From assembly GCF_013315695.1 (NCBI RefSeq), contig NZ_CP054353.1: 64,000 bases of DNA. One strand, given 5' to 3'. Below, in pieces: positions 9,001-12,000 of this stretch. A program made the position numbers. The stretch's first letter is position 1; each line of letters opens with the position of its first letter. The DNA is from Escherichia coli (GTDB lineage Bacteria; Pseudomonadota; Gammaproteobacteria; Enterobacterales; Enterobacteriaceae).

Positions 9001-12000
9001 GTTTTGGTCTGAAAGCAGTAGTGTTATTAAAATAATTGTCATATACAGGTGTGGATGCTATAGCATTGCTTCTAATTAGATGGATAAGACGATCATCCAT
9101 GTGTTGTTTATGTTTTTTATTAAATATATTTGCTAATTCCTCAGGATCAATTGGGTCTTTCATCTGATTAAATGGAACCTGCAAAGCACCTAGACAATAA
9201 CATTCATTTTCTTCATTTCTTATTATTCCGTGATGACTGGTTAAAACTTTCGTTTCTGAGTCATAATTACAAACATCGAGCGTTTTAATTAAGTTATATG
9301 TATCACCGGAAGAGAGTTTATGATTTGCTAGTCGGGCACTATAGTTACCATTAAAATTGATTTCATGATTTCCAGCCAGAACGACGACATTTTTATTTAT
9401 ACGACTATCTTTATTACCCTCCATATTTCGCATAGAATTTAGCAAAGTAAGGATATATTTATCACCAAAAATAGTACTAAATCTATCGCCTGTATGATCC
9501 CCAAGGAAGATACAAGGGGTAATCGCATCGCCTTTTAAAAAAACATGTTGATGCAACTCATTCAAAAACATGTCTCTCTTATCTAATAAAGTGAAGAGTT
9601 TTTTCAATTTTTTATTTTCATATGCGAATGAAGCCATGTCTTCGTGTTTTAATAAATCACATAATAAACTCCACCCCTTTTCCCTGATGCCTATATGCCC
9701 TGAAACGAGCAATGCATAAAGTACAGCGCCTACTCTTCCATCTGTATCGCCAAAATAAGCCGTGTTGGCATTTTGTGGGTTAATCACACCACACTGTTTA
9801 TAAAAGTCTATTTTTGAAAAAACAGATTCAACATAGCTATCAAACTTTTCCTTAGTAAACGTCTCTTTAGAGACAGCCCAACGCCAGTCAGGTTTGAAAT
9901 TACCACTAAGAAGAGTAAAGAAATTTCTCTCTATGATAGAAAACCCATCAACTTTATAAATTATGTCTGATTTATCCCCGGAGAAATTAATAAAATAATA
10001 ACCGTCCTTACGCTCAATCGTAACGGTAATGGGAGACGATAATTTTATCACATGGTTATTGTCTGGTATAATTGTAAAGATAAACGTGTCAGTAGTATTA
10101 TCGGCAAAACTATTATATTCTTTAATATCTATAGATGGCTCACTATTGTAAAACCATATTTTTTCTATCTGAGAACTATGTTCAGTTACGTTCCAGCAGC
10201 CATGTTGCAGAAAATAGATGATATGCAGGCCAAAATCGTTATCTATTTGCAAATGTTTATCCAGCTTATCAATTTCAACTATCTTTGAACGATGTTTTTT
10301 ATCAACCTTGCCATGGTGTTGATGACTGTTAACTTTATCTGAATGCTTATCTTGATGGTTTGAAGAGATGTGCTTAAATATATTGTGAAATACTTTCATA
10401 AATAACCCGTGATATTTTTGACTTGTTAGTAACAAAATAAATGACACATGTCTGAAAGACATATTTACGATGATACAAAGCAATAATACTTATATGTTCG
10501 ATGATTTTAAGCACCGATACCATCCGGTCTTTTACCAAATAATGAAAAAGAATCCCTCCCTGGAAGATAATTGTAAAAAACAACAGAATAAGAATTAATC
10601 TTAGGATAAATATTTATTTACCATGGCCTTTTGAACGCTGAAAAGTAGCGCTCTGCAAAGTAAATCCCGCTATAGTTATGCTATGCATTTGTCTTTAATG
10701 ATATCTCGTCATTATATTAACAGGCTGAAATTATCATTAATGCACATTTCAATATTAGCAGGGATACCTGAGGAGTTTAAAGTGAACATATATATCGGGT
10801 GGCTTTTCAAATTAATCCCTTTAATTATGGGCTTAATTTGTATCGCGTTAGGTGGCTTTGTGCTGGAAAGTTCTGGGCAAAGTGAGTATTTCGTCGCGGG
10901 TCATGTGCTGATTTCTCTGGCAGCCATATGCCTGGCATTATTCACTACCGCATTTATTATCATTTCGCAGCTCACGCGCGGCGTTAATACGTTTTACAAT
11001 ACATTGTTCCCCATTATTGGCTATGCGGGGTCAATTATCACCATGATATGGGGTTGGGCACTGTTAGCAGGCAATGATGTGATGGCAGACGAGTTTGTTG
11101 CCGGCCATGTTATTTTTGGCGTTGGTATGATTGCCGCCTGTGTATCGACAGTGGCAGCGTCATCCGGTCACTTTCTGCTCATTCCCAAAAACGCAGCAGG
11201 GAGCAAGAGCGATGGAACACCGGTACAGGCTTATTCGTCATTAATCGGTAATTGCCTCATTGCCGTTCCCGTTTTACTCACCCTGCTCGGTTTCATTTGG
11301 TCTATTACGCTGTTACGTAGTGCCGACATAACTCCGCATTATGTCGCCGGTCACGTATTGCTTGGGTTAACCGCAATCTGTGCCTGTCTAATTGGCCTTG
11401 TTGCCACAATCGTCCATCAAACACGTAATACGTTCTCATCCAAAGAACACTGGCTGTGGTGTTATTGGGTTATTATTCTCGGCTCAATCACGGTGCTGCA
11501 GGGCATATACGTCTTAGTCAGCTCCGATGCAAGCGTCCGACTGGCTCCCGGCATTATTCTCATTTGCCTCGGAATGATCTGTTACAGCATATTCTCAAAA
11601 GTCTGGCTACTGGCACTGGTCTGGAGACGTACCTGTTCGTTAGCCAACAGAATACCGATGATTCCCGTCTTCACCTGCCTGTTTTGCCTTTTCCTGGCAT
11701 CGTTTCTTGCGGAAATGGCGCAGACCGACATAGGGTATTTTATTCCTTCGCGGGTTCTGGTCGGTTTGGGAGCGGTATGCTTTACGTTGTTCTCAATCGT
11801 TTCAATATTAGAAGCGGGTTCTGCTAAAAAATAATTGCAACGTACCGGATAAACCAGCGTTGATTATTTGCGTAACGCTGGTTTTTCTTAGGTATCATGA
11901 AATAACGCAGCATTAATGCATAGTGGTTAAGTATAAATAAACAGCAAAGTTGCTGATTTTTTCAACCTGTTCATATTTTATAAAGATCTGGCCACTGGGG

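What the first reader, a model, noticed from the sequence alone, without database searches (positions are those of the whole stretch)
10782..11834. Threefold internal repeat in YhiM
YhiM contains three copies of a conserved element at roughly regular spacing (YFVAGHVLISLAAICLALF, EFVAGHVIFGVGMIAACV, HYVAGHVLLGLTAICACLIG), implying a triplicated helical module with an invariant His on each repeat, as in channel- or metal-coordinating proteins. yhiM is implicated in acid resistance, but I know of no mechanistic description of the repeats.
Basis: partly seen in the sequence, partly recalled or inferred. Interest (0 to 1): 0.4.

Follow-up and report, generated by a model that had tools for sequence, protein, structure and literature searches.

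The report
Fivefold helical-hairpin repeat in YhiM
The three histidine-containing elements are real, but they are three of five copies of a two-helix hairpin that builds the E. coli inner-membrane protein YhiM into a predicted five-sided helical barrel, a shape already noted from its AlphaFold model, whose conserved glycine, histidine/arginine and cysteine positions give concrete targets for testing its disputed roles in acid, GABA and copper physiology.

Summary
Window 10782-11834 (+) is E. coli yhiM: 350 aa, Pfam DUF2776, E 8e-158. The three quoted elements are present exactly, at aa 36-54, 104-121 and 186-205.

The repeat is fivefold, not threefold. YhiM is five tandem two-helix hairpins of about 65-80 aa. 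All ten unit-versus-unit profile comparisons give 86-99% probability; reversed-profile controls give 8% or less. Copies 4 and 5 lack His.

The motif opens the second helix of each hairpin (TM2, 4, 6, 8, 10), at the periplasmic end. The family-conserved core is Gly(0), Gly(+5/+7) and Cys(+10; +12 in TM4), not His. The +1 position reads H/P/R, H (about 80%), H (about 77%), aromatic, R/H (about 96%).

I infer that the even helices form the inner ring, the opposite of SLAC1. The heptad register puts His on the outer side of that ring, so an axial tri-His metal site is unlikely. No model coordinates were available to measure this.

Verdict: real, and richer than described, but a known protein. Moderate interest.

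The parts
10782..11834 (+). yhiM coding sequence (GTG start, 350 codons plus stop); DUF2776 family inner-membrane protein
   Evidence: PF10951, E 8.3e-158, residues 1-347 of 350; annotated yhiM in E. coli genomes.
10760..10760 (+). Published transcription start (an adenine 22 nt upstream of the GTG)
   Evidence: PMC6604978 abstract. The base at window 10760 is A. It lies downstream of the in-frame ATG at 10683, so the longer ORF is not on the mapped mRNA.
10782..10985 (+). Repeat unit 1 (aa 1-68): hairpin TM1 (aa 3-30) + TM2 (aa 34-65)
   Evidence: AF2 helices. hhalign against units 2-5: probability 96-99%.
10986..11201 (+). Repeat unit 2 (aa 69-140): hairpin TM3 (aa 70-95) + TM4 (aa 102-130)
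11202..11435 (+). Repeat unit 3 (aa 141-218): hairpin TM5 (aa 153-178) + TM6 (aa 184-214)
11436..11630 (+). Repeat unit 4 (aa 219-283): hairpin TM7 (aa 220-247) + TM8 (aa 251-280).
   Evidence: hhalign against units 1, 2, 3: probability 96%; against unit 5: 91%. AF2 helices.
11631..11831 (+). Repeat unit 5 (aa 284-350): hairpin TM9 (aa 293-313) + TM10 (aa 317-347).
   Evidence: hhalign against units 1-4: probability 86-97%. AF2 helices.
10887..10943 (+). Motif copy 1, YFVAGHVLISLAAICLALF (aa 36-54): Gly40, His41 (codon 10902-10904), Cys50
   Evidence: Conservation: G40 89%, position 41 H45/P20/R16, C50 93%.
11091..11147 (+). Motif copy 2, EFVAGHVIFGVGMIAACVS (aa 104-122): Gly108, His109 (codon 11106-11108), Gly113, Gly115, Cys120
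   Evidence: G108 100%, H109 80%, C120 98%.
11337..11393 (+). Motif copy 3, HYVAGHVLLGLTAICACLI (aa 186-204): Gly190, His191 (codon 11352-11354), Gly195, Cys200
   Evidence: G190 93%, H191 77%, C200 100%.
11538..11594 (+). Motif copy 4, RLAPGIILICLGMICYSIF (aa 253-271): Gly257, Ile258 at the His position (aromatic in most of the family), Gly264, Cys267
   Evidence: (alignments).
11736..11792 (+). Motif copy 5, YFIPSRVLVGLGAVCFTLF (aa 319-337): Ser323 (Ala in the family), Arg324 at the His position (codon 11751-11753), Gly328, Gly330, Cys333
   Evidence: (R 80%, H 16%).
11854..11889 (+). Likely intrinsic terminator of the monocistronic yhiM transcript: CCAGCGTT(12-nt loop)AACGCTGG followed by TTTTTCTT
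   Evidence: Read directly from the sequence. PMC6604978 mentions inverted repeats in the yhiM region that probably form a stem-loop. The automatic scan missed it because it allows loops of only 3-8 nt.

Best explanation
YhiM (DUF2776) is an ancient fivefold tandem duplication of a two-helix transmembrane hairpin. It folds as one chain into a two-layer helical barrel with approximate five-fold symmetry.

Its consensus is [FY]-V-A-G-[H/R]-V-h-x-G-h-G-x-I-C.

I infer that these five even-numbered helices are the inner ring and the odd-numbered helices the outer ring.
- The even helices carry a coiled-coil-barrel heptad: large aliphatics at a/d, small residues at e/g (including the five conserved Cys), and Gly at b.
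- The b-position Gly would pack against a matching Gly on the partner outer helix.

The His position is a 'c' position. Across the five repeats it forms a belt reading H/R/P, H, H, aromatic, R/H. The belt sits at one depth, at the periplasmic membrane interface, on the outer side of the inner ring.

Most likely mechanism (inferred, not shown): the Gly/Cys core is structural. The His/Arg belt is a titratable, positively charged collar. Its protonation state at acidic periplasmic pH, or its binding of an anionic or carboxylate group, would tune the conformation of the barrel and the passage of a small solute. GABA export is the best-documented activity.

It is probably not a single tri-His metal centre on the pore axis.
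For: Shown here:
- Five hydropathy-defined hairpins.
- All ten unit pairs are related: hhalign probability 86-99%, against 8.3% or less for reversed-profile controls.
- The AF2 model has pLDDT 94.6 and pTM 0.94. Its second helices start at aa 34, 102, 184, 251 and 317, so H41, H109, H191, I258 and R324 are each helix residue 8.
- Topology is N-in/C-in by Lys+Arg counts, so every motif copy starts at the periplasmic side (PMC6604978).
- Conservation among 44 representatives below 70% identity: Gly 89/100/93/91% and Ala 80%; Cys 93-100% in all five repeats; ring position H45, H80, H77, F/Y/W/C and R80+H16. The pattern CCCCC occurs in 126 of 137 full-length members.

From the literature: the YhiM AlphaFold model is 'based on five central helices' and is the closest natural match to designed parallel alpha-helical barrels (PMC11288890).

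Inferred:
- Even helices as the inner ring. They hold 2.92 versus 2.46 bits of conservation (p 2e-6), have more small residues, and show little periodicity of conservation. The same measures largely pick out the known inner odd helices of TehA.
- The heptad register. Large aliphatics make up 90% of 'a' and 83% of 'd' positions; 'g' is 80% small; 'f' is least conserved; His sits at 'c'.
- Matching outer-helix Gly: G24 100%, G91 95%, G241 100%.

Function:
- The yhiM mutant exports about 50% less GABA at pH 5, and overexpression raises export (PMC6604978).
- yhiM homologues sit next to glutamate-decarboxylase and antiporter-like genes in Romboutsia, Paraclostridium and Cellulomonas denverensis.
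Against: - No model coordinates could be read. The inner/outer assignment, the facing of the His side chains and the presence of any pore are inferences from sequence statistics.
- The a/d stripe that should line the lumen is almost entirely Val/Leu/Ile. In the modelled state a five-helix lumen would be too narrow and too greasy for GABA or hydrated ions. A transport role therefore needs gating or a different pathway.
- GABA export by overexpressed YhiM did not vary between pH 2.5 and 5.5. This gives no support for pH gating, although every pH tested was below the His pKa.
- Linkage to gad genes is rare: 3 of 79 species loci.
- The copper phenotype depends on CpxAR and may be indirect.
- Position 41 is Pro in Bacteroidetes, and some members keep only one His in the belt. 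No particular His count is essential.
Confidence: 0.55

Rival explanations
1. Purely architectural motif in a protein that is not a transporter. The Gly, His/Arg and Cys positions only hold the barrel together. The His/Arg belt anchors it to lipid head groups at the outer leaflet. The lumen is a closed hydrophobic core. The acid, temperature, osmolarity, GABA and copper phenotypes would then be indirect consequences of envelope perturbation sensed by CpxAR.
For: - The inferred lumen-facing a/d positions are 83-90% Val/Leu/Ile/Met/Phe.
- The even helices are the most hydrophobic in the protein.
- Loss of YhiM activates CpxAR, and the Cu resistance of the mutant requires CpxAR; Cu import is not abolished.
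- Genomic context is mostly stand-alone and heterogeneous.
Against: - Overexpression increases GABA export and deletion halves it at pH 5.
- gadB/gadC adjacency recurs in two phyla.
- A conserved Arg/His on the periplasmic side runs against the positive-inside trend, which suggests a specific role.
- The closest natural folds are channels.
Confidence: 0.25
2. The His residues, with the mid-membrane Cys ring, form a Cu(I) or other metal binding or conduction path along the barrel axis, making YhiM a copper entry route.
For: - UPEC yhiM mutants are Cu-resistant and contain less Cu (PMC11005409).
- Three His lie at one depth on three consecutive helices.
- Five Cys are conserved at 93-100%, one per repeat.
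- YhiM has 13 Cys, 3.7% of its residues.
- yhiM is regulated by CueR.
Against: - His41 is present in only 24-45% of family representatives, and the belt holds anywhere from 0 to 4 His.
- The heptad register puts His at 'c' and Cys at 'e', not at the axis-facing a/d positions.
- The TM4 Cys is displaced by two residues onto another face.
[quoted passage not shown] They attribute the resistance to CpxAR and copA induction.
- Most family members come from contexts with no metal genes.
Confidence: 0.12
3. Cofactor site. The two best-conserved His (H109 on TM4, H191 on TM6), each next to small residues, ligate a haem b or similar cofactor, as in membrane b-type cytochromes.
For: - A pair of about 80%-conserved His lies at equal depth on neighbouring helices, flanked by Gly.
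- yhiM is reported as up-regulated in a cydAB mutant (PMC6604978).
- Redox genes lie nearby in Bacteroidetes loci.
Against: - Clostridial, Christensenella and Methanomassiliicoccus members have Asn at position 109.
- Some Bacteroidetes have Ser at position 191.
- 8 of 44 representatives keep only one belt His.
- There is no match to any haem-protein family in Pfam.
- The apo model is compact, with no low-confidence segments (no stretch with pLDDT below 50).
Confidence: 0.04
4. Chance or compositional similarity between hydrophobic helices, with no true repeat.
For: Transmembrane segments often give inflated alignment scores. The simple shuffle control destroys the hydropathy pattern and so overstates significance.
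Against: - Reversed-profile controls, which keep composition and the helix-loop-helix layout, score 8.6-17. The real pairs score 31-85.
- The alignments are in register over the whole hairpin.
- The AF2 helix starts are in register.
- An exact 5-mer seen three times arose in 5 of 20,000 shuffles.
Confidence: 0.01

Closest known systems
SLAC1 / SLAH / TehA S-type anion channels (Pfam PF03595; PDB 3m71, 7wnq, 9m7s, 9m7r)
   Same: [quoted passage not shown]
- Short loops on the outer side and longer loops on the cytoplasmic side (PMC3172217; PMC11260165).
   Different: - No detectable sequence relationship. Pfam PF03595 is not hit even at E up to 1. hhalign of DUF2776 against a TehA alignment gives 0.2% probability. 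Foldseek TM-score is only 0.39.
- In SLAC1 the odd helices form the pore. In YhiM the even helices are inferred to be inner, so the central helices run in the opposite direction through the membrane.
- No equivalent of the gating Phe has been identified.
- SLAC1/TehA are trimers. The oligomeric state of YhiM is unknown.
De novo single-chain parallel coiled-coil alpha-helical barrels (sc-CC-5/6/7/8; PDB 8qkd, 8qag, 8qai, 8qah) and designed closed helical repeats (8u1a, 5cwq, 6xr1)
   Same: - A ring of parallel central helices joined through outer helices.
- The designers reported YhiM as the most striking natural match to their designs (PMC11288890).
- The YhiM inner helices show the same kind of g-a-d-e pattern: small, Leu, Ile/Val, small.
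   Different: - The designs are water-soluble, idealised and have no function.
- YhiM is a natural membrane protein with diverged repeats and specific polar and Cys features.
Homopentameric two-helix channels (MscL; CorA/Mrs2/ZntB transmembrane parts)
   Different: - These are five separate chains, not one fused chain.
- They are unrelated in sequence.
- From my own knowledge, not tested here: in MscL the first helix is the inner one, and CorA has large soluble domains.
Ctr1 copper transporter and other His/Met/Cys metal pores
   Same: Symmetry-related rings of metal-liganding side chains in a central pore. A copper phenotype exists for YhiM, and the authors drew a Ctr1 analogy from an N-terminal MXXXM motif in UPEC alleles (PMC11005409).
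   Different: - Ctr1 is a trimer with Met rings.
- This window's allele starts MNIYI and lacks MXXXM.
- The His and Cys of YhiM are not at the axis-facing heptad positions, and the His count varies.

Membership tests
DUF2776 / YhiM family (Pfam PF10951) | Full-length match to the family HMM above the gathering score | tested here: met
   525.6 bits against a cut-off of 26.1; residues 1-347 on profile positions 1-347 of 348. No NCBIfam model matches.
DUF2776 / YhiM family (Pfam PF10951) | Ten transmembrane helices, N- and C-termini in the cytoplasm | tested here: met
   Ten hydropathy peaks. Ten long AF2 helices. Lys+Arg 10 inside versus 2 outside. Agrees with the prediction in PMC6604978.
SLAC1/TehA family (Pfam PF03595) | Sequence match to the family profile | tested here: not met
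   No PF03595 hit at E up to 1. hhalign against a TehA alignment gives 0.2% probability, although the TehA profile is shallow, Neff 1.4.
SLAC1/TehA family (Pfam PF03595) | [quoted passage not shown] | tested here: met
SLAC1/TehA family (Pfam PF03595) | Odd-numbered helices form the pore layer | tested here: not met
   By inference only. The even helices of YhiM are the more conserved, richer in small residues and non-amphipathic in conservation. The same measures largely recover the known odd inner helices of TehA.
SLAC1/TehA family (Pfam PF03595) | Conserved gating phenylalanine in the pore; anion conductance | not testable with these tools
   Needs coordinates and electrophysiology.
Coiled-coil alpha-helical barrel (structural class) | Heptad pattern on the central helices: hydrophobic a/d flanked by small e/g | tested here: met
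   Large aliphatics at 90% of 'a' and 83% of 'd' positions; 'g' 80% small; 'e' 48% small including Cys(+10). The periodicity peak lies at 3.5-3.6 residues.
Coiled-coil alpha-helical barrel (structural class) | Cyclically closed ring of central helices with knobs-into-holes packing | not testable with these tools
   No coordinates are returned by the predictor. PMC11288890 states that a CC+ database search 'confirmed YhiM' as such a barrel.
Tri-histidine metal site | The three His conserved in the family | tested here: not met
   His in 45%, 80% and 77% of 44 representatives below 70% identity. The belt holds 0-4 His per protein. All three His are present in 45 of the 79 species genomes closest to E. 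coli.
Tri-histidine metal site | Imidazoles within coordinating distance and converging on one point | not testable with these tools
   The three His share depth and membrane side and sit on consecutive even helices. The heptad register places them at 'c', away from the axis. Distances could not be measured.

The most novel reading that the evidence does not exclude
DUF2776 would be a previously unrecognised class of monomeric, pseudo-pentameric membrane channel that arose independently of SLAC1/TehA and has the opposite layer order. Its central five-helix pathway would carry a periplasmic collar of titratable His/Arg and a mid-membrane ring of five conserved cysteines. It would open or select its cargo (GABA, protons or Cu(I)) according to periplasmic pH or redox state. 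That would unify the acid, GABA and copper phenotypes of yhiM mutants in one mechanism.
Probability: 0.15. Interest if true: 0.7.

Novelty: new variant of a known kind. Interest (0 to 1): 0.42.

Why it matters
YhiM is a conserved E. coli inner-membrane protein. Its reported phenotypes are puzzling and partly contradictory:
- acid survival
- growth at high temperature and low osmolarity
- GABA export
- copper sensitivity with CpxAR activation
- fitness in urinary-tract infection

No mechanism is known.

Seeing it as a five-hairpin barrel turns 'function unknown' into a short list of residue-level experiments. The defined parts are a Gly/Cys packing core, a His/Arg belt at the periplasmic interface, and five conserved mid-membrane cysteines.

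It is also a rare natural counterpart of designed single-chain alpha-helical barrels. By sequence it is unrelated to SLAC1/TehA, so the plan of five hairpins in two layers appears in a second family. Whether that reflects independent origin or divergence beyond detection is not settled here.

This does not change the fact that the protein, its family and its predicted fold are already public.

Tried and rejected
1. DNA-level repeats in 10782-11834. Only three short two-copy matches were found, at least one of them out of frame, so there is no recent duplication.
2. Mean-field direct-coupling analysis, intended to obtain helix contacts and the facing of the His. The alignment has an effective size of only 44, and the top pairs were artefacts within single helices. 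The result was discarded.
3. Reading model coordinates. The predictor returns only confidence and secondary structure, and no structure file appears in the sandbox. His-His distances and pore radius could not be measured.
4. Foldseek against AFDB50. The library was not available.
5. Sequence search of the PDB with the family profile. Nothing was significant; the best E was 0.22.
6. Homology to TehA by profile-profile comparison. None was found, though the TehA profile was shallow because the homologue search returned only sequences at or above 81% identity.
7. Family-wide linkage to glutamate decarboxylase genes. It is real but rare: 3 of 79 loci, plus Romboutsia.
8. My first conservation estimate for His41 (19%) was biased by gut Bacteroidetes metagenome sequences. 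After adding one genome per species and clustering, it is 24-45% depending on the threshold.
9. The simple residue-shuffle control for unit similarity is too lenient for membrane helices. It was replaced by reversed-profile controls.
10. A search with a single-hairpin profile for free-standing hairpins or other copy numbers was considered and not run. Full-length DUF2776 proteins would fill the 120 listed hits.
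Full report
**What is at the coordinates**

- Window 10782-11834 (+) is an ORF starting at GTG that encodes 350 residues.
- It matches Pfam PF10951 (DUF2776) end to end at E 8.3e-158. It matches no NCBIfam model.
- It is 100% identical to the annotated yhiM of several E. coli chromosomes, where it sits between two DUF4049 genes and yhiN/pitA.
- The base 22 nt upstream of the GTG (window 10760) is an A, matching the mapped transcription start in PMC6604978.
- A stem-loop followed by a T-run lies after the stop codon at 11854-11889.

**Check of the observation**

- The three quoted strings are present exactly, at aa 36-54, 104-121 and 186-205.
- VAGHV occurs three times. 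Any exact 5-mer seen three or more times arose in 5 of 20,000 shuffles of the protein.

**The repeat is fivefold and the unit is a hairpin**

- Hydropathy shows ten peaks.
- Cutting the protein into five two-helix units (aa 1-68, 69-140, 141-218, 219-283, 284-350) gives in-register local alignments. These include unit 1 against units 4 and 5.
- Residue shuffling is a weak control for membrane helices. I therefore built a 137-sequence family alignment from the homologue searches, cut it into the five units, and compared the unit profiles.
  - All ten pairs give 86-99% probability and scores 31-85.
  - All 25 comparisons against reversed profiles, which keep composition and the helix-loop-helix layout, give scores 8.6-17 and probability 8.3% or less.
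- Copies 4 and 5 of the motif are RLAPGIILICLGMICYSIF (aa 253-271) and YFIPSRVLVGLGAVCFTLF (aa 319-337).
- Nothing is repeated at the DNA level, so the duplication is old.

**Predicted structure**

- AlphaFold2 on a 52-sequence alignment gives pLDDT 94.6 and pTM 0.94.
- The helices are 3-30, 34-65, 70-95, 102-130, 153-178, 184-214, 220-247, 251-280, 293-313 and 317-347.
- The second helices of the five hairpins start at 34, 102, 184, 251 and 317. H41, H109, H191, I258 and R324 are therefore each the eighth residue of their helix.
- The loops inside each hairpin are 3-6 residues long. The loops between hairpins are longer.

**Topology**

- Lys+Arg counts are 10 in the N-terminus, even-to-odd loops and C-terminus, against 2 in the odd-to-even loops. 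The family means are 13.7 and 2.2.
- This gives N-in/C-in, as predicted in PMC6604978.
- Every motif copy therefore begins at the periplasmic end of an even-numbered helix. The three His lie on the same side of the membrane at the same depth.

**What is conserved**

- I added one genome per species (79 loci) to correct a bias toward gut Bacteroidetes. I then clustered 216 sequences below 70% identity into 44 representatives.
- Anchor residue: Gly in 89, 100, 93 and 91% of repeats 1-4, and Ala in 80% of repeat 5.
- Cys ten residues downstream (twelve in TM4): 93, 98, 100, 95 and 95%.
- The pattern CCCCC occurs in 126 of 137 full-length sequences, and GGGGA in 124 of 137.
- Gly at +5 and +7 is also conserved.
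- The position after the anchor (+1), by repeat:

| Repeat | Residue in YhiM | Family usage (44 representatives) |
|---|---|---|
| 1 | H41 | H 45%, P 20%, R 16% |
| 2 | H109 | H 80%, N 14% |
| 3 | H191 | H 77%, S 11% |
| 4 | I258 | F/Y/W/C |
| 5 | R324 | R 80%, H 16% |

These include Proteobacteria, Actinobacteria and Desulfovibrionia.
- Bacteroidetes have Pro at position 41. Clostridia and Methanomassiliicoccus have Asn at position 109. Several Actinobacteria read HHH-T-H.
- His is therefore frequent and recurs in four of the five repeats, but it is not invariant. The invariant core is Gly and Cys.

**Fold comparison**

- By sequence, no solved structure is related.
- Foldseek finds nothing at E 0.001 or better. 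The best TM-score is 0.48 to a designed barrel, and 0.39 to TehA.
[quoted passage not shown] Their odd helices form the pore (PMC11260165).
- DUF2776 shows no sequence relationship to TehA.

**Which helices are inside (inference)**

- The even helices are more conserved: 2.92 against 2.46 bits, p 2e-6.
- They are richer in small residues (37-56% against 25-35%) and mostly poorer in aromatics (5-14% against 12-23%).
- Their conservation shows almost no helical periodicity, whereas the odd helices are conserved on one face.
- Applied to TehA, the same measures largely pick out the known inner odd helices, clearly for the TM1/2, TM3/4 and TM9/10 pairs.
- I conclude that TM2, 4, 6, 8 and 10 are the central helices, the opposite layer order to SLAC1. 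This needs coordinates to confirm.

**Register of the central helices (inference)**

- Pooling the five even helices over the family gives a clean heptad.
  - a: +6, +13, +20; 90% large aliphatic.
  - d: +2, +9, +16; 83% large aliphatic.
  - g: +5, +12, +19; 80% small.
  - e: +3, +10, +17; includes the conserved Cys.
  - b: 0, +7; Gly (+14 is mostly large).
  - c: +1, +8, +15, +22; small or polar. This includes His/Arg at +1 and Arg/Lys at +22.
  - f: least conserved.
- This small-Leu-Ile-small pattern is the one used for designed barrels.
- In such barrels a/d face the lumen and b/c/f face outward (established coiled-coil knowledge).
- Each outer helix carries a matching Gly about 16 residues before the inner-helix Gly: G24 100%, G91 95%, G170 Gly or Ala, G241 100%. 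This fits a Gly-on-Gly crossing inside each hairpin.

**What this means for the histidines**

- They lie on the same side of the membrane, at the same depth, on three consecutive central helices. They are therefore neighbours at the scale of one to two helix spacings.
- The register puts them on the outside of the inner ring, toward the outer helices or lipid head groups, not on the axis.
- With Arg324 and, in other species, His or Arg at positions 41 and 324, they form a belt of titratable or positive residues at the periplasmic interface.
- A single axial tri-His metal centre is unlikely. I could not measure distances because no coordinates are returned. A coevolution attempt failed for lack of sequences.

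**Function**

- PMC6604978 reports about 50% less GABA export in a yhiM mutant at pH 5 and more export on overexpression at pH 2.5-5.5. It also reports GadE/GadX control.
- PMC11005409 reports Cu resistance and lower Cu content in the mutant. It also reports copA induction and CpxAR activation on loss of yhiM in UPEC. The resistance depends on CpxAR, and Cu import is not abolished.
- Homologues sit among gadC-like and glutamate-decarboxylase genes in Romboutsia. They sit next to gad-like genes in Cellulomonas denverensis and Paraclostridium. Only 3 of 79 species loci show such a neighbour.
- Other contexts are stand-alone.
- The family is rare and patchy. It was found in 221 stretches among about 100,000 species genomes, including archaeal MAGs.

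**Most likely mechanism and rivals**

- Best supported (0.55): a single-chain pseudo-five-fold barrel.
  - The motif's Gly and Cys are the packing core.
  - The His/Arg belt is a pH-titratable positive collar at the periplasmic interface that modulates the conformation of the barrel or its handling of a small solute such as GABA.
  - The barrel and repeat are shown. The layer order and register are inferred from sequence statistics. The role of the belt is inference.
- Main rival (0.25): a purely architectural motif in a non-transporting protein whose loss perturbs the envelope. The almost wholly aliphatic inferred lumen favours this.
- Metal pathway idea (0.12): keeps some support from the copper phenotype and the Cys and His content. 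It is weakened by the variable His count and the register.
- Haem site (0.04) and chance (0.01) are effectively excluded.

**Novelty**

- The gene, the family and the AlphaFold barrel are public.
- Three things were not in the papers I could search:
  - the fivefold sequence repeat
  - its Gly / His-Arg / Cys signature
  - the inferred reversal of layer order relative to SLAC1/TehA
- I rate it a new variant of a known kind, of moderate interest.

Noticed in passing
window 10683-10781 (+): The yhiM reading frame is open for 33 more codons upstream to an ATG at 10683, giving a 383-aa ORF. The mapped transcription start at 10760 lies downstream of that ATG (PMC6604978), so the extension should not be on the mRNA. 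PMC11005409 attributes part of the UPEC copper phenotype to an N-terminal MXXXM motif absent from commensal alleles. This window's protein starts MNIYI and has no such motif. I did not check whether the UPEC motif lies in the true N-terminus or in an annotated extension.
   Followed up: partly
window 10600-11900, compared with 5,426 complete E. coli genomes: A megablast match to yhiM was found in only 4,250 of 5,426 complete E. coli genomes, although the literature calls it a core gene. Either about a fifth of genomes lack it, or they carry a version too diverged for megablast.
   Followed up: no
window 10782-11831 (protein): YhiM has 13 cysteines, 3.7% of its residues. All lie in or next to transmembrane helices. 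Seven are family-conserved: C20, C50, C120, C200, C267, C302 and C333. This looks unusually high for an inner-membrane protein (my impression; not compared here) and may bear on its copper sensitivity phenotype.
   Followed up: partly
window 8810-10483 (-): A 557-aa ORF lies immediately upstream on the opposite strand. It corresponds to one of two adjacent DUF4049 paralogues in E. coli. It has a low-complexity His/Lys-rich N-terminus. Function unknown.
   Followed up: no
L059 2893-5682 (Cellulomonas denverensis); L002 2875-8784 (Romboutsia); L079 (Paraclostridium): In an actinobacterium and in Peptostreptococcaceae, DUF2776 genes sit directly beside glutamate-decarboxylase-like genes. In Romboutsia and C. 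denverensis they also sit beside amino-acid-antiporter-like genes. Most other lineages have no such neighbour. This points either to transfer of a gad-yhiM module or to repeated recruitment.
   Followed up: partly
L078, L080 (uncultured Methanomassiliicoccus MAGs): Full-length DUF2776 genes, 48% identical to E. coli YhiM, occur in gut archaeal genome bins. The wider distribution is patchy across Proteobacteria, Actinobacteria, Clostridia, Desulfovibrionia and Bacteroidetes. Horizontal transfer among gut and soil organisms seems likely. Contamination of the bins was not excluded.
   Followed up: no
YhiM aa 62-63, 130-131, 212-213 (window 10965-10970, 11169-11174, 11415-11420): A second, cytoplasmic-end repeat feature. 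Positions +22/+23 of the even helices read R-Q (repeats 1 and 3) or K/R-F (repeat 2) in the family. E. coli has S-Q, H-F and H-Q. The E. coli protein thus replaces conserved cytoplasmic Arg by His in two repeats.
   Followed up: no
YhiM K273 (window 11598-11600): A Lys conserved in 89% of representatives sits at a 'd' position (+16) of TM8. On my register this is inside the inferred lumen, toward the cytoplasmic half, among otherwise aliphatic residues. It could be a functional pore residue or simply snorkel to the cytoplasm.
   Followed up: no
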